From NCBI GenBank assembly GCA_048885765.1, contig JBHLLI010000050.1, forward strand, positions 3,003 through 27,002: DNA of 24,000 nt. The letters run 5' to 3'. Origin of the DNA: Candidatus Hermodarchaeota archaeon. Its GTDB lineage: Archaea; Asgardarchaeota; Lokiarchaeia; Sigyniarchaeales; SOKP01. Below, piece by piece: positions 3,736-22,229 of this stretch. The position numbers and the translations under genes are program-made. The stretch's first letter is position 1. Every line of letters begins with the position of its first letter. The notes below the pieces were generated by a model. It was not told where the DNA came from and did not search any database. It worked only from the letters and a program-made list of their open reading frames with translations.

Positions 3736-4344
3736 ATGTCTGTGCCTACAAATACTACTTCTGAGATCGATAGTAAAGAGAAACCAGCCTATATTTTTAA
3801 AATTACAATTTTAGGGCAGGAACGAGTAGGCAAAACTTGTATTGCTAGAAGATTATGTTTCAATACCTTTGATGTTAATACAAAAGAGACCTTGGGTATT
3901 GAATTTTATACAAAAGATATACCTATTGTTGTTGATGGTGATAATACATTTGTACGACTTAGTATATGGGATTTTGGTGGACGAGAACAATTCAAAAAGT
4001 TATTTCCATATTATATTAATGGTGCGAATGGAATTTTCATGGTCTTTGATCTGATAGATCTTCAAACATTATTAAGGTTAGACTGGTGGTATGACAGACT
4101 TTCAGAATATAATCACGCTCTTACGCCCAGAATGTGTATTGGAGCTAAGAATGATTTAGTGAAGACTGCTGATGAGAAATCTAAAGTGGATGATTTAGTA
4201 ATTAAAAGATTCATGGAAAGACATGATGAAAACGATTTTTTTAAAACTTCTTCAAAAGAAAATTGTAATATTGATGTAATTTTTAAACAGCTCCTTATCA
4301 AAATACTGCAAAAAAATGCCCTAGATTTTGATCGAATACCATAA
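3736..4344 (+). CDS. Ras-superfamily (Rab/Ras-like) small GTPase
   Basis: G1 is GQERVGKT. Switch I is Rab-like (ETLGIEF). G3 is WDFGGRE. G4 is GAKNDL. G5 is TSSKE. At 202 aa it has no C-terminal prenylation Cys. Confidence 0.85.
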   Translation: MSVPTNTTSEIDSKEKPAYIFKITILGQERVGKTCIARRLCFNTFDVNTKETLGIEFYTKDIPIVVDGDNTFVRLSIWDFGGREQFKKLFPYYINGANGIFMVFDLIDLQTLLRLDWWYDRLSEYNHALTPRMCIGAKNDLVKTADEKSKVDDLVIKRFMERHDENDFFKTSSKENCNIDVIFKQLLIKILQKNALDFDRIP

Positions 4345-5965: not shown

Positions 5966-6260
5966 TATTAGTTATCTAAATATTTCAAAGAATAAAACTC
6001 TTCTAAATAATTCCTAATCTAAAATTGGGTGAATTAAAAAAAAAAAAAAAAATTTTGCTATAGTTAAAGAATTCTATTTGAAATGCCCAAAACAGTAAAA
6101 TTTTTAATATTTGCTATCTTTACTAATATACAGTGGAAGACTCGTATTCTTATTTTTTAAATATGGCATATTATAACCATTATAAAGGATGTTTTCTCCG
6201 ATGATTTGTACTTCTTCTTCAAATTCAATTTATGCAAGTATTTTTAGAGGTATTTAACTT

Positions 6261-18852: not shown

Positions 18853-19317
18853 ATGAATATAGTATTTAAGCAAATTAATGCTTCAAATTTGGATTTAATA
18901 GAAAATTTGGCTACAGAAGCTCATTTTGAAGGTTTCGAATTCGTTAAGCGAACTATTTTCGAATGGAAGAGTGGTTTAAATGACTTTAGTAAGCAGGGTG
19001 AGATCTTATTTGGAATATGTATATCAGATTTATGCATAGGACTTGGTGGGTTAAATGTTGATCCTTACATCAATAATCCTAACATAGGACGTGTTAGGCA
19101 TGTATATATATCCCCGAAATATCGTAGAAAAGGATTAGGCATTCTATTGTTAAATAAAATTATTCACAATAGTGCTAACCATTTTGAATTGTTGCGATTA
19201 TATACTAATAATCTAATCGCTTCCACATTTTACGAGTCATTAGGTTTTAAGCAATCATTTAGCTTAAAAGTAACTCATATCTTAAAAAATCTGGATAAAT
19301 ATCCAAAACTTCATTGA
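18853..19317 (+). CDS. GNAT-family N-acetyltransferase
   Basis: Acetyl-CoA motif A is present (RHVYISPKYRRKGLGILLLNKII, i.e. R/Q-x-x-G-x-G/A), followed by the YESLGF motif B region. 154 aa. Confidence 0.8.
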   Translation: MNIVFKQINASNLDLIENLATEAHFEGFEFVKRTIFEWKSGLNDFSKQGEILFGICISDLCIGLGGLNVDPYINNPNIGRVRHVYISPKYRRKGLGILLLNKIIHNSANHFELLRLYTNNLIASTFYESLGFKQSFSLKVTHILKNLDKYPKLH

Positions 19318-19340: not shown

Positions 19341-19688
19341 TTATTCAATTTTGCCAGTTTTAACCCAACCTGAATTATCAGTTGCTACAATATTTTGTAT
19401 TTTTACCTTAGGATTAATGTATTTGATTCCTATTTTGCGAAATCGTTCTAAAACTATATCAAATGCTAATTGAACATCACTCTTCTTTTTTAAGCCAGTT
19501 AAGACCATTTTACCAGTAGAAAATATTAATATAGTAGCATGTGGTTTTTCTATGTACATTACAAGTCCTGGAAAACGTTCTGGGTTATACTCAGTATTAA
19601 CATAATTATTGGCGAGCTTGTTTAAATCTATCTTCTCTGTAATTTCAATTATTCCAATCCCAACAATATTTTCTATTTTATCGGTCAA
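19341..19688 (-). CDS. TATA-box-binding-protein homolog containing only one TBP repeat (truncated or single-domain TBP)
   Basis: IENIVGIG...IDLNKLA...EYNPERFPGLVMYIEKPHATILIFSTGKMVLTGLKK...A...RFRKIGI corresponds to TBP repeat 1. The second repeat starts (KVKIQNIVAT) and the ORF then ends 12 codons later. TTG start with GGAG 13 nt upstream. Only 23 bp separate its stop from the convergent GNAT gene. Confidence 0.7.
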   Translation of the reverse strand: MTDKIENIVGIGIIEITEKIDLNKLANNYVNTEYNPERFPGLVMYIEKPHATILIFSTGKMVLTGLKKKSDVQLAFDIVLERFRKIGIKYINPKVKIQNIVATDNSGWVKTGKIE

Positions 19689-19746
19689 AATAATCCTGTT
19701 CTCCTATACTTAAACTAAAGCTTATCTCGTGTACAAATTAAGAAAA

Positions 19747-20190
19747 TTAATTGGTCAATATTTCCTTAGCTGGAAGAACTAAACCGATCACTAGAAGACT
19801 AATTCCAACAACGAATGTAATCATACTTATTCCAATATATCCAATATAGATTTTATATATAATAAAAGTACTCCAAGATATCCCACCACCTATAAGAATT
19901 GCATACCAAGACCATTTTTCAGCTTTACGATAACTTTTTTGGTTTATTAAAACAACCATAGCTCCATTAGCTAATAGAATGCAACCGACTAATTTTTTTG
20001 TGATAATGTAAATCTGTGCAAATTCAGGAGCGGCACCTAAATACTGTTGGTATGTTAAACCAGTATAATATGCAAAATCACTCACAAACATTATTTCAGT
20101 TACAAATATCCATAGCAGGGCCATCACTATTGTATACATTCCCATAAAAAGTATTATAAATGAACCAATTTCTAAATTTGATTTATTCAT
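19747..20190 (-). CDS. Small 4-TM membrane protein, unknown function
   Basis: 147-aa ORF with four hydrophobic helices. A GAGGGAG Shine-Dalgarno-like motif lies directly upstream of the ATG. Confidence 0.55.
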   Translation of the reverse strand: MNKSNLEIGSFIILFMGMYTIVMALLWIFVTEIMFVSDFAYYTGLTYQQYLGAAPEFAQIYIITKKLVGCILLANGAMVVLINQKSYRKAEKWSWYAILIGGGISWSTFIIYKIYIGYIGISMITFVVGISLLVIGLVLPAKEILTN

Positions 20191-20300: not shown

Positions 20301-20912
20301 TCATACTAAATTACTAATAATTTTTATAAAATTGTCCTTATATTGTATCTCTATATTATTTTCCTCTAAATATTTAACAATTCTCTCTTTAATGATATAT
20401 CCATTTTTAAAATCCAAAAAATTTTTTCCAATGAACTCTGGTAAGTATTTTCTTTCTAAAACAATTTCATTTGAACCCCTAGTTTTCATTAAAGAATGAA
20501 TCTTGCTTACTATCTCAGAATAGATGCTCCGACCTCGAACTTTTAACCTTCTAGGATGCCTTTTTCCTTTAAAACTCTTGATCTTTTTCATTCTATCGAT
20601 ATCTCTTCTTTTTATTATCTCCAATTTATTTGTAATAATATGATGATCTTCACCCGTGTGTAAATCTTTTAATCGATTTACCATCCAATTAGGTATACCA
20701 TTCTCTATGGGATTCGATATTATATTATCAATTCTAGCTAATTGTTCTTCAGAGAGATCTCCTATCCTGAGATTAGGATTTAATTCTGCTGTTTTAACAA
20801 TCGCTTGAGCTAATCTCATATCAACTCCTTTTATTTGAGTCAATCCAAAGATAACTTTACTATTAGAGTCAATTATAGCTCGAGCTCTCCGTAAAAATTT
20901 CATCTTAATCAT
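20301..20912 (-). CDS. Divergent ribosomal protein S13 (uS13)-like protein with a non-canonical ~75-aa C-terminal domain
   Basis: Residues 5-128 (LTQIKGVDMRLAQAIVKTAELNPNLRIGDLSEEQLARIDNII...GIPNWMVNRLKDLHTGEDHHIITNKLEIIKRRDIDRMKKIKSFKGKRH...LKVRGRS) are collinear with archaeal S13. Residues 129-203 are not basic and are unlike the S13 tail. The gene is not in the usual S13-S4-S11-rpoD cluster. Confidence 0.7.
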   Translation of the reverse strand: MIKMKFLRRARAIIDSNSKVIFGLTQIKGVDMRLAQAIVKTAELNPNLRIGDLSEEQLARIDNIISNPIENGIPNWMVNRLKDLHTGEDHHIITNKLEIIKRRDIDRMKKIKSFKGKRHPRRLKVRGRSIYSEIVSKIHSLMKTRGSNEIVLERKYLPEFIGKNFLDFKNGYIIKERIVKYLEENNIEIQYKDNFIKIISNLV

Positions 20913-21902: not shown

Positions 21903-22229
21903 CTAATTTAGATTCAGTTCCTTTTTAATTTGATACATTTTTTGATAGTAGTCAAAATTTAGCTTATTCATATCTTGGACAATATCCGCATTAAGCACTT
22001 TTTCACCAGAAGATTGGAACTCAATATCTCCTATTACATTAATTAAATCATTTTCCTTAAATTTGAACTCATCAATACTCATAAGATTAACATTAATTTC
22101 ACCAGTTTTATCATCTAAAACAATTTGCTTATCACTGACTCTGCTTTTAATGTATCCAGTAACTTGGATTCGTTCATCATCTAGAGAAATATCTTTAACT
22201 ATTCTTTGTTTAGCGAACTGAAAAGACAT
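21903..22229 (-). CDS. Small OB-fold protein resembling RPA2/RPA3/Stn1-type ssDNA-binding subunits
   Basis: The pattern is V-x-V-x-G-x-I (RIQVTGYIKS), then hydrophobic-LDD-x-TGEI-x-V, then a second strand block INVIGDIEF, then ADIVQDMNKLNFDYYQ, a C-terminal helix like the DMNE...H/Y segment of RPA32-type OB domains. It is divergently paired with PCNA. Confidence 0.5.
   Translation of the reverse strand: MSFQFAKQRIVKDISLDDERIQVTGYIKSRVSDKQIVLDDKTGEINVNLMSIDEFKFKENDLINVIGDIEFQSSGEKVLNADIVQDMNKLNFDYYQKMYQIKKELNLN

What the first reader, a model, noticed from the sequence alone, without database searches (positions are those of the whole stretch)
19341..19688. TBP homolog with a single TBP repeat
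The 115-aa product aligns to TBP repeat 1 (IENIV...YNPERFPGLVMYIEKPHATILIFSTGKMVLTGLKK) plus the inter-repeat linker and the first strand of repeat 2 (KVKIQNIVAT). It then ends after 12 unrelated residues (DNSGWVKTGKIE). The rest of repeat 2 is absent in all three minus-strand frames: only 23 bp remain before the convergent GNAT gene, and I translated the following ~120 nt without finding TBP-like sequence. The gene keeps a GGAG ribosome-binding motif and an intact repeat. There are two readings. It may be a remnant of a TBP paralog truncated when the GNAT gene was acquired. Alternatively it may be a functional half-TBP acting as a homodimer or as a decoy for TFB or other TBP partners. The second reading is notable because the two-repeat TBP saddle is thought to derive from a single-repeat ancestor.
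Basis: partly seen in the sequence, partly recalled or inferred. Interest (0 to 1): 0.65.

Follow-up and report, generated by a model that had tools for sequence, protein, structure and literature searches.

The report
Stand-alone half-TBP gene in Lokiarchaea
This is a real, conserved but dispensable gene in a small group of Asgard (Loki-type) archaea that encodes only one of the two repeats of the TATA-binding protein. It sits beside a normal full-length TBP elsewhere in the genome, and similar single-repeat TBPs are already known from other archaea.

Summary
Window 19341-19688 (-) encodes a 115-aa protein made of TBP repeat 1, the linker, strand S1' of repeat 2 and a 12-residue tail. No repeat 2 exists anywhere in the window.

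It was not truncated by the GNAT gene, and it is not an assembly error. Five other lineages carry the same 115-118-aa gene at the same site (TFS-S13-membrane ORF-halfTBP, convergent with S27e-L44e). Most lack the GNAT gene, and the stop codon lies 11-137 nt from S27e.

The six sequences form one clade derived from Lokiarchaeal TBP repeat 1. Related MAGs also carry a canonical 227/228-aa TBP.

dN/dS is 0.2-0.55, with every confidence interval below 1. An unconstrained ORF would almost never stay open over this divergence. AlphaFold2 predicts that the tail forms an extra strand pairing with S1' in both subclades.

The gene nevertheless evolves far faster than its neighbours. It is frameshifted in two lineages and deleted in at least two nested lineages, so it is an accessory gene.

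The mechanism is inferred only. My best guess is a basic, monomeric half-saddle that binds DNA or a TBP partner without recruiting TFB.

Single-domain TBPs are known from Halobacteria (TbpA) and Thermococcales. I found no report of one in Asgard archaea. This would be a new variant of moderate interest.

The parts
19341..19688 (-). Complete CDS of the single-repeat TBP paralogue ('half-TBP'). It is 115 aa with a TTG start and a TAA stop at 19341-19343.
   Evidence: ORF list. Pfam PF00352 single hit. The identical 115-aa protein P0001 is in the protein collection, and an 87%-identical 115-aa orthologue P0002 exists.
19434..19679 (-). TBP repeat 1 (aa 4-85), with elements S1-H1-S2-S3-S4-S5-H2.
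   Evidence: Pfam match to profile positions 3-84 of 85. AF2 model with pLDDT 93 shows strands 4-15, 42-46, 51-55 and 60-66 and helices 22-28 and 69-85. Foldseek finds only TBP structures, TM 0.75-0.82.
19380..19433 (-). Inter-repeat linker plus strand S1' of the former repeat 2 (aa 86-103, ...IGIKYINPKVKIQNIVAT).
   Evidence: Aligns to the canonical ...AGIKLANPEITIQNIVAS. AF2 predicts a strand at 91-103.
19344..19379 (-). Clade-specific 12-residue tail (aa 104-115, DNSGWVKTGKIE). It forms a turn plus an extra beta-strand predicted to pair with S1'.
   Evidence: The tail is homologous in all six orthologues, with pattern N-x-x-G-[WMR]-[VI]-x-[TIS]-x-x-[IVF]-x. AF2 predicts a strand at 109-113 here and at 112-116 in P0031, where the tail pLDDT is 85-90. 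The tail has no significant similarity to any part of canonical TBP (p=0.78).
19701..19718 (-). Conserved upstream element: TTAG(A/T)TT (19712-19718) followed by AGGAG (19701-19705). These are candidate transcription-start and ribosome-binding signals.
   Evidence: Both motifs are present upstream of all six orthologues, although the rest of the intergenic sequence diverges. Their function was not tested.
18853..19317 (+). Context only: a GNAT acetyltransferase gene inserted between the half-TBP and S27e in this lineage.
   Evidence: Pfam Acetyltransf_7/_1. The gene is absent from the syntenic site in L001, L002, L003 and L085-L088. L089 is too short to tell.
19747..20190 (-). Context only: a conserved 147-150-aa membrane ORF immediately upstream. 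It may be co-transcribed with the half-TBP.
   Evidence: It has no Pfam hit. It is 82-88% identical in L085 and L001. It is also present in relatives that lack the half-TBP, namely L093-L096.

Best explanation
The gene encodes a lineage-specific, stand-alone single-repeat paralogue of the archaeal TATA-binding protein.

Shown:
- It arose from a duplicate of the Lokiarchaeal TBP gene that kept repeat 1, the linker and strand S1', and lost the rest of repeat 2.
- It sits at a fixed locus in the common ancestor of a narrow group of low-GC Promethearchaeota (Loki-type Asgard archaea).
- It has been kept as an open, translatable gene under purifying but relaxed selection.
- It acquired a new C-terminal strand and a set of clade-invariant substitutions.
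- In related genomes it coexists with an almost invariant canonical two-repeat TBP.
- It is dispensable, being repeatedly frameshifted or deleted.

Inferred:
- The protein folds as a monomeric 'half saddle'. The new tail strand pairs with S1' and caps the sheet edge that repeat 2 would otherwise continue. New hydrophobic residues on helix H2 (L74, I78) and Y90 may repack the exposed surface.
- It is basic and lacks the acidic N-terminal tail of the canonical protein. The window's subclade keeps the repeat-1 DNA-contact residues and both central Asn/Val pairs.
- It therefore most likely still binds the minor groove of AT-rich, TATA-like DNA, or a partner of the TBP N-terminal repeat.
- It has no C-terminal stirrup, so it cannot recruit TFB and RNA polymerase.
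- It would then act as a non-essential modulator or competitor of promoter occupancy, not as an initiation factor.

The confidence of 0.6 is for the whole statement. I put the 'shown' part at about 0.85 and the specific mechanism at about 0.3.
For: Identity and fold: Pfam TBP hit at E=3e-25. AF2 models have pLDDT 93 and 88. Foldseek returns only TBPs.

Orthologues and synteny: six distinct sequences (window, L089, L003, L085-L088, L001, L002) occupy the same TFS/S13/membrane-ORF | S27e/L44e/ATCase/NrdD site.

Rarity: an exhaustive HMM search of 1.84 billion representatives found only three short single-stretch clusters of this clade.

Origin: the clade is monophyletic and groups with Lokiarchaeal repeat 1, not repeat 2. 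The best identities, about 61%, are to Promethearchaeota TBPs.

Coexistence: canonical 227/228-aa TBPs occur in the same MAGs, L023 with L002 and L041 with L086.

Selection: NG86 dN/dS is 0.21-0.54, and every bootstrap 95% interval is below 1. The closest pair, window-L089, gives 0.38 (0.17-0.84). The neutral probability of an open 115-codon frame is 1.6%, 0.14% and 0.015% at 0.25, 0.5 and 1 substitutions per site.

Structural adaptation: the tail pattern is conserved and is predicted as a strand in two subclades. Clade-invariant changes are A10G, V12G, V63L, E73Q, R74L/I, V76F, K78I, V80L, A86I/L and L90Y.

Charge: pI is 9.2-9.9 and net charge +3 to +9 in all six, against pI 4.5 for the full canonical protein.

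Conserved upstream TTAGNTT + AGGAG motif.
Against: No expression, binding or oligomerisation data exist, so the mechanism is inference.

The gene is the fastest-evolving one in its neighbourhood. Its dN is 0.22-0.39 against 0.01-0.11 for S27e, L44e and ATCase. Amino-acid identity between lineages is 44-68%, while the canonical TBP cores of two of the same MAGs look identical by eye when the and translations are compared (no alignment was run).

Two lineages carry 1-nt deletions in poly-A runs. One of these is reproduced in an independent Logan assembly. At least two lineages nested inside the clade lack the gene entirely.

Subclade B has lost key DNA-contact equivalents (N7T, F39V/L, N99K). 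The window protein itself has Y in place of the Arg equivalent to yeast R105. Canonical TATA binding is therefore not conserved across the clade.

The AF2 alignment is dominated by canonical TBPs, and the tail pLDDT in the window model is only 66-83.

NG86 on 29%-GC genes with dS near 1 is rough. The NJ trees have no support values.

The canonical tbp of the window's own genome was not seen, because only 24 kb were available.
Confidence: 0.6

Rival explanations
1. The gene is a non-functional remnant: a slowly decaying pseudogene of a TBP duplicate that happens to remain open.
For: It evolves fast. Two lineages are frameshifted and at least two nested lineages have deleted it. The clade is very small.
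Against: All bootstrap intervals for dN/dS are below 1. Four lineages keep an intact frame over dS of about 1, where neutral survival is at most 1.6% per lineage. Length, tail pattern, clade-invariant substitutions and upstream motifs are conserved. The fold is predicted with confidence.
Confidence: 0.15
2. The protein forms a homodimer that rebuilds a symmetric TBP-like saddle. It then acts as an alternative or competing TATA-binding factor, recapitulating the presumed single-repeat ancestor.
For: Repeat 1 is intact. Subclade A keeps the DNA-contact residues, both intercalating Phe equivalents and the central Asn/Val residues. The protein is basic. A new conserved hydrophobic stripe on H2 (L74, I78) could be an interface.
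Against: S1' and the tail strand are predicted to occupy the sheet edge where a second repeat would have to dock. Subclade B has lost the Asn and Phe residues needed for TATA kinking. No repeat-2-type stirrup exists for TFB. No multimer prediction could be run.
Confidence: 0.1
3. The protein is a decoy or adaptor that binds a protein partner of the TBP N-terminal repeat, or some other ligand, and does not bind DNA.
For: DNA-contact residues are not conserved across the whole clade, while S4-S5 and helix H2 are invariant and H2 gains conserved hydrophobic residues. The locus sits among transcription and translation genes such as TFS and S13. The C-terminal extension of the neighbouring S13 is homologous to the N-terminal extension of a two-repeat TBP paralogue, P0109.
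Against: No partner has been identified. The stirrup sequence is variable among orthologues. The link to the S13 extension rests on one pairwise hit with E=7e-9, and a database search for that domain found nothing.
Confidence: 0.12
4. The gene is an artefact, or was truncated recently. Either repeat 2 was removed by the GNAT insertion or by misassembly, or the gene is one half of a split TBP whose other half is nearby.
For: The GNAT gene lies 23 bp downstream. Interrupted canonical TBP genes do exist in other Lokiarchaea.
Against: GNAT-free orthologues have the same length and tail. At least 12 independent contigs agree. No repeat-2-like sequence exists in the window or in the syntenic loci.
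Confidence: 0.03

Closest known systems
Canonical archaeal TATA-binding protein (two PF00352 repeats; e.g. Pyrococcus woesei 1AIS/1PCZ, M. jannaschii 2Z8U, and the Lokiarchaeal 200-228-aa TBPs)
   Same: The repeat-1 sequence is about 60% identical to Lokiarchaeal TBP. The fold is the same S1-H1-S2-S5-H2 arrangement. Most repeat-1 DNA-contact equivalents are kept in the window's subclade.
   Different: There is only one repeat plus S1'. There is no C-terminal stirrup, which is the TFB-binding site by established TBP/TFB structures (my own knowledge of 1AIS and 1D3U). The acidic N-terminal tail is missing. A new C-terminal strand is present. The gene evolves fast and is dispensable, whereas the canonical protein is almost invariant.
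Halobacterial TbpA-type single-domain TBP paralogues (Brindefalk et al. 2013, PMC3597702)
   Same: It is a single TBP domain that clusters with bona fide TBPs. It coexists with full-length TBPs. TbpA is reported as functional but non-essential. This is the closest analogue in kind.
   Different: The origin is independent. The nearest relatives here are Promethearchaeota TBPs, and haloarchaeal plasmid TBPs are only 39-44% identical. This clade is chromosomal and fixed in a ribosomal/TFS neighbourhood. It carries a conserved S1' plus extra-strand C-terminus. I did not retrieve the TbpA sequence, so its C-terminal architecture was not compared.
Thermococcales monopartite TBP-domain proteins (e.g. 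P. furiosus NP_578195, 82-136 aa; Brindefalk et al. 2013)
   Same: They are small stand-alone proteins predicted to adopt one TBP domain, and they occur alongside a normal TBP.
   Different: Those proteins are highly diverged from TBP and form their own sequence cluster. The protein here is plainly a recent TBP derivative that passes the Pfam TBP threshold by 65 bits.
TBP-like N-domains of RNase HIII and DNA glycosylases (TBP-domain superfamily)
   Same: In these proteins a single TBP-type domain serves as a nucleic-acid-binding module.
   Different: Those domains are fused to catalytic domains and are only remotely similar in sequence. No such families appear among the Pfam or structure hits here.

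Membership tests
TBP domain family (Pfam PF00352, TBP-like fold) | Significant match to the TBP repeat profile above the curated threshold | tested here: met
   88.2 bits against a cut-off of 22.9, E=3.3e-25, profile positions 3-84 of 85.
TBP domain family (Pfam PF00352, TBP-like fold) | S1-H1-S2-S3-S4-S5-H2 fold | tested here: met
   AF2 models with pLDDT 93 and 88 show this order of elements. All 44 Foldseek PDB matches with E<=1e-3 are TBPs, with TM 0.75-0.82 normalised to the query. This is a prediction, not a solved structure.
Canonical TBP (general transcription initiation factor) | Two tandem TBP repeats in one polypeptide forming the ten-stranded saddle | tested here: not met
   There is one Pfam stretch only. 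No repeat-2 sequence exists in any frame downstream or elsewhere in the window. The same holds in all orthologous loci.
Canonical TBP (general transcription initiation factor) | C-terminal-repeat stirrup that binds TFB/TFIIB | tested here: not met
   The whole region after S1' is missing. That TFB contacts the C-terminal stirrup is established knowledge from the 1AIS, 1D3U and 1VOL structures and was not tested here.
Canonical TBP (general transcription initiation factor) | Conserved DNA-contact residues (central Asn/Val on S1 and S1', two intercalating Phe per repeat, S4/S5 Leu/Val/Thr) | tested here: inconclusive
   Subclade A, including the window, keeps N7, V9, F39, L54, F56, K60, V62, T64, N99 and V101, but has Y45 in place of Arg. 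Subclade B has N7T, F39V/L and N99K. The residue mapping to yeast TBP is from memory.
Canonical TBP (general transcription initiation factor) | Essential, near-invariant, universally retained gene | tested here: not met
   Identity between lineages is 44-68%, and dN is about 2-30 times that of the S27e, L44e and ATCase neighbours. The gene is frameshifted in L001 and L002. It is absent in L093-L096, which nest within the clade.
Canonical TBP (general transcription initiation factor) | TATA-box binding and support of TFB/RNAP recruitment | not testable with these tools
   This needs EMSA and in vitro transcription.
TbpA-type single-domain TBP paralogues (Halobacteria) | Single TBP domain, not part of a larger or misannotated gene, clustering with bona fide TBPs | tested here: met
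   Genomic context and six-frame translation were checked. Identity to TBP repeat 1 is about 60%.
TbpA-type single-domain TBP paralogues (Halobacteria) | Coexistence with a full-length TBP in the same genome | tested here: met
   MAG DZ2S.252 has L002 (half) plus L023 (227 aa). MAG DZ2S.393 has L086 (half) plus L041 (228 aa). This could not be checked in the window's own genome.
TbpA-type single-domain TBP paralogues (Halobacteria) | Common descent with halobacterial TbpA | tested here: not met
   The nearest relatives are all Promethearchaeota TBPs. Haloarchaeal plasmid TBPs are 39-44% identical. The resemblance is analogous and of independent origin.
Thermococcales monopartite TBP-domain proteins | Own sequence cluster, only remotely similar to TBP | tested here: not met
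   This protein is an obvious TBP by sequence. The Thermococcales proteins are described as highly diverged. No direct alignment to them was made.

The most novel reading that the evidence does not exclude
The half-TBP is a natural, selected single-repeat TBP that self-associates into a symmetric saddle, or into a longer sheet joined through its new edge strand. In Asgard archaea it would bind promoter DNA as an alternative or antagonistic TBP. That would be a living model of the homodimeric ancestor postulated for TBP, in the lineage closest to eukaryotes.
Probability: 0.1. Interest if true: 0.8.

Novelty: new variant of a known kind. Interest (0 to 1): 0.45.

Why it matters
TBP is the textbook case of a pseudo-symmetric protein thought to descend from a single-repeat homodimer. 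Natural proteins that live with only one repeat show whether and how that half can fold and be useful alone.

This clade is a clean, datable example. It comes from the archaeal group closest to eukaryotes, and the two-repeat parent is still present for comparison. It has an identifiable structural patch, namely the retained S1', a new capping strand and a repacked H2. Its pattern of gain, maintenance and repeated loss marks it as an accessory regulator.

It gives experimentalists six ready-made sequences for testing half-TBP folding, oligomerisation and DNA binding.

It does not change the current picture of transcription initiation. Single-domain TBPs were already described in Halobacteria and Thermococcales.

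Tried and rejected
1. Truncation by GNAT insertion is rejected. GNAT-free orthologues have the same length and tail.

2. Assembly error is rejected. Independent NCBI, ENA and Logan contigs agree.

3. I tested whether the tail is the old S4'-S5' region brought next to S1' by an internal deletion. A profile slide of the 12-aa tail over canonical TBP gave a best score below the shuffled mean (p=0.78). The S5' position ranked third with a trivial score. This origin is not supported, and where the tail came from remains unknown.

4. A search for more members in JGI metagenome contigs with a C-terminal-specific alignment matched 350 pattern stretches, none confirmed.

It was still useful for showing coexistence.

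6. A homology search with the S13 C-terminal extension ('domain X') found no candidate sharing words with the query.

7. The first S27e look-up used the 71-aa GTG-start ORF and found nothing. The 68-aa version worked.

I reran it with the truncated database versions.

9. The context of P0109, a two-repeat TBP paralogue with an N-terminal extension, is not syntenic with this locus. It is therefore not the full-length ancestor at this site.

10. Literature searches for a single-repeat TBP in Asgard archaea found only the 2013 superfamily paper, which covers other archaea.

Full report
**Observation**

The ORF at window 19341-19688 (-) is 115 aa with a TTG start. Pfam finds one TBP repeat, PF00352, at aa 4-85 with E=3.3e-25. 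A canonical Lokiarchaeal TBP run by tblastn against the window hits only 19374-19679. That hit covers repeat 1, the linker and S1' at 59.8% identity. The query's repeat 2 merely re-hits the same stretch at 39%. After ...KVKIQNIVAT come 12 residues and a stop. None of the three downstream frames contains TBP-like sequence. The convergent GNAT gene (18853-19317) ends 23 bp away.

**Organism and neighbourhood**

The best protein matches are TBPs of Promethearchaeota (Lokiarchaeia-type Asgard archaea) at about 55-62% identity. The window is 29% GC. It carries the following genes:
- RNAP A'/A'' and a Ras-family GTPase (Pfam).
- NrdD, ATCase, L44e and S27e, named by ORF length and gene order matching the annotated syntenic loci L001, L002 and L085; no family search was run on the window copies.
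- GNAT, the half-TBP, a 147-aa membrane ORF with no Pfam hit, S13 with a C-terminal extension, and TFS (Pfam).
- A glyoxalase, a Ten1-like OB protein and PCNA (Pfam).

**Orthologues**

Five further distinct sequences share clade-specific motifs: IENIVGxG, KMVLTGLKKxSDVQLAFxIVL, and a tail N-x-x-G-[WMR]-[VI]-x-x-x-x-[IVF]-x.
- P0002/L089 is 115 aa and 87% identical.
- P0031/L003 is 118 aa.
- P0107 is 118 aa. The identical protein occurs on 8 contigs, including three NCBI MAGs (L085-L088).
- P0083/L002 and P0072/L001 are two shorter annotated products.

Wherever enough flank exists, the gene lies at the same site: TFS, then S13 and/or the membrane ORF, then the half-TBP, convergent with S27e-L44e, followed by ATCase and NrdD. 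None of these loci has a GNAT gene. The stop codon is 11 nt from S27e in L085 and 100-137 nt away in L001 and L002. There has never been room for repeat 2, and the GNAT insertion did not truncate the gene.

The short 85-aa and 73-aa products of L001 and L002 result from single-base deletions in poly-A runs. Reading on in the shifted frame restores a 115-aa protein with the same tail. The L001 frameshift is reproduced in an independent Logan assembly.

**Rarity**

A profile search of 1.84 billion representative proteins gave only three short single-repeat clusters of this type among about 5,000 TBP hits. A clade-specific scan of JGI metagenome contigs found none.

**Origin**

In an NJ tree of repeat-1 regions the six sequences are monophyletic. 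They group with Lokiarchaeal repeat 1, far from repeat 2, and their internal branches are long (no support values). The gene is therefore a secondary reduction of a TBP duplicate, not an ancestral single-repeat relic.

Two MAGs that carry the half-TBP also carry a canonical 227/228-aa TBP: DZ2S.252 has L002 plus L023, and DZ2S.393 has L086 plus L041. The two canonical core sequences look identical by eye in the and translations; I did not run an alignment. Their half-TBPs are 44% identical.

**Selection**

Pairwise NG86 dN/dS is 0.21-0.54, and every bootstrap 95% interval excludes 1. The least saturated pair, window-L089 with dS of 0.19, gives 0.38 (0.17-0.84). S27e, L44e and ATCase in the same genome pairs give 0.01-0.07. 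The half-TBP's dN (0.22-0.39) is about 2-30 times theirs (0.013-0.112).

In a neutral simulation with the genome's base composition, a 115-codon frame stays stop-free in 1.6%, 0.14% and 0.015% of replicates at 0.25, 0.5 and 1.0 substitutions per site. Four lineages are intact at dS of about 1. The gene has been maintained by selection, though weakly.

**Loss**

An exact look-up of the window's S27e protein found relatives in which the membrane ORF abuts S27e directly, with 77-115 nt between them. These are L093/L095 and L094/L096, and they contain no TBP-like sequence.

In an ATCase+L44e+S27e NJ tree, L093 is sister to the window and L094 is sister to L085, with L002 outermost. This implies at least two independent deletions in addition to the two frameshifts. 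The gene is dispensable.

**Structure**

AF2 models of the window protein (pLDDT 93, pTM 0.85) and of P0031 (pLDDT 88) show the TBP domain. Both also show a long S1' strand (91-103 and 93-106) followed by a turn and an extra strand (109-113 and 112-116). The tail pLDDT is 66-83 in the window model and 85-90 in P0031. Foldseek returns only TBPs.

Clade-invariant differences from canonical repeat 1 are A10G, V12G, V63L, E73Q, R74L/I, V76F, K78I, V80L, A86I/L and L90Y. R74L and K78I place hydrophobic residues where the canonical H2 has charged ones. I infer that these repack against the S1'-tail hairpin or form an interface; I had no model coordinates to check this.

The tail shows no significant similarity to any part of canonical TBP.

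**Functional surfaces**

I mapped the yeast TBP DNA contacts from memory. Subclade A (window, L089, L002, L001) keeps N7, V9, F39, L54, F56, K60, V62, T64, N99 and V101. The window has Y45 where canonical TBP has Arg. Subclade B (L003, L085) has N7T, F39V/L and N99K.

All six proteins are basic, with pI 9.2-9.9. They lack the acidic N-terminal tail that gives the canonical protein a pI of 4.5.

The stirrup is variable, and the TFB-binding C-terminal stirrup is absent by construction.

A TTAG(A/T)TT + AGGAG motif is conserved upstream of all six genes.

**Interpretation**

The gene is a genuine, lineage-specific, stand-alone single-repeat TBP paralogue that has been structurally adapted to life without repeat 2. 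It has been kept under relaxed purifying selection as an accessory factor and is repeatedly lost.

The most likely mechanism is inference. The protein is probably a monomeric, edge-capped half saddle that binds AT-rich DNA, or a partner of the TBP N-terminal repeat, without recruiting TFB. It would then modulate initiation, not drive it. Homodimer, protein-decoy and near-neutral-remnant readings remain open.

**Comparison with known proteins**

Single TBP-domain proteins have been described. Halobacterial TbpA is close to full TBPs and is non-essential. A diverged Thermococcales family also exists (Brindefalk et al. 2013, PMC3597702). The present clade resembles the TbpA type in kind. It differs in three ways: it is of independent, Lokiarchaeal origin, it is fixed in a chromosomal information-processing locus, and it has a conserved S1' plus extra-strand C-terminus.

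Full-text searches found no report of a single-repeat TBP in Asgard archaea. I rate it a new variant of a known kind, of moderate interest.

**Limits**

- There are no expression or biochemical data.
- Multimer prediction was not possible.
- NG86 and NJ are simple methods applied to AT-rich, partly saturated data.
- The AF2 alignments are dominated by canonical TBPs.
- The window genome's own canonical tbp was not seen.
- TbpA and the Thermococcales sequences were not aligned directly.

Noticed in passing
L049:5289-5335 (also L090:~1095-1141 and L091:~825-871): In three other Lokiarchaeal lineages the canonical TBP gene is interrupted exactly at S1' (…ITIQNI | VASGD…) by a conserved 30-nt insert carrying an in-frame TAA. 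This splits the gene into a repeat-1 ORF (130-141 aa; P0050, P0055, P0058) and a repeat-2 ORF (81 aa). The insert holds a perfect 8-9-bp hairpin. The flanking exon sequences pair in an 11-bp helix with two compensatory changes among the three sequences. The fold z-score is -4.95. The layout is helix / 4-bp helix / 3-nt bulge and looks like a bulge-helix-bulge mini-intron. Unspliced, the gene would yield another 'half-TBP'.
   Followed up: partly
window 20301-20912 (-), aa ~137-199; L084:784-1587 (P0109): The S13 ribosomal protein next to the locus has a C-terminal extension of about 70 aa. The extension is 39% identical (E=7e-9) to the N-terminal extension of a 267-aa two-repeat TBP paralogue from another metagenome. 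The same small domain is therefore fused to S13 here and to a TBP elsewhere, which may hint at an interaction. A database search with the domain found nothing.
   Followed up: partly
L001:~6234-6251 and L002:~6195-6212: The half-TBP orthologues in two MAGs carry single-base deletions in A6/A7 runs, while the shifted downstream frame remains open and conserved. The neighbouring genes in both loci have normal lengths. The L001 lesion recurs in a Logan assembly (L092). The lesions may be recent inactivations, or sites of transcriptional or ribosomal slippage.
   Followed up: partly
L093:3031-3109, L095, L094:2825-2941, L096: Close relatives with an identical S27e protein lack the half-TBP entirely. 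L093 also lacks S13 at this site. The locus is a small hotspot of gene gain and loss: GNAT is present only in the window lineage, S13 is absent in L001 and L093, and the membrane ORF is absent in L002.
   Followed up: yes
window 20301-20912 versus L085:4798-5406: S13 shows a much lower dS between the window and L085 (0.27) than the flanking genes do (0.9-1.5). This suggests recombination or gene conversion within the locus.
   Followed up: no
P0106 (272 aa) and P0105 (376 aa) from the representative search: These TBP proteins have three and four PF00352 stretches. P0106 reads as repeat 1 - repeat 1 - repeat 2, possibly a haloarchaeal-type sequence. P0105 is a head-to-tail doubled eukaryotic TBP and may be a gene-model artefact.
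   Followed up: no
window 3736-4344 (+) and 21903-22229 (-): The window encodes a Ras/Roc-family small GTPase. It also encodes a Ten1-like OB-fold protein next to PCNA and, in the syntenic loci, primase. Both are typical Asgard 'eukaryotic signature' genes.
   Followed up: no
L051/L083 (MAG CSMAG_846) and L059/L070 (MAG Bin_204): Some Promethearchaeota MAGs carry two distinct full-length TBP genes. TBP paralogy is therefore common in this phylum, independent of the half-TBP.
   Followed up: no
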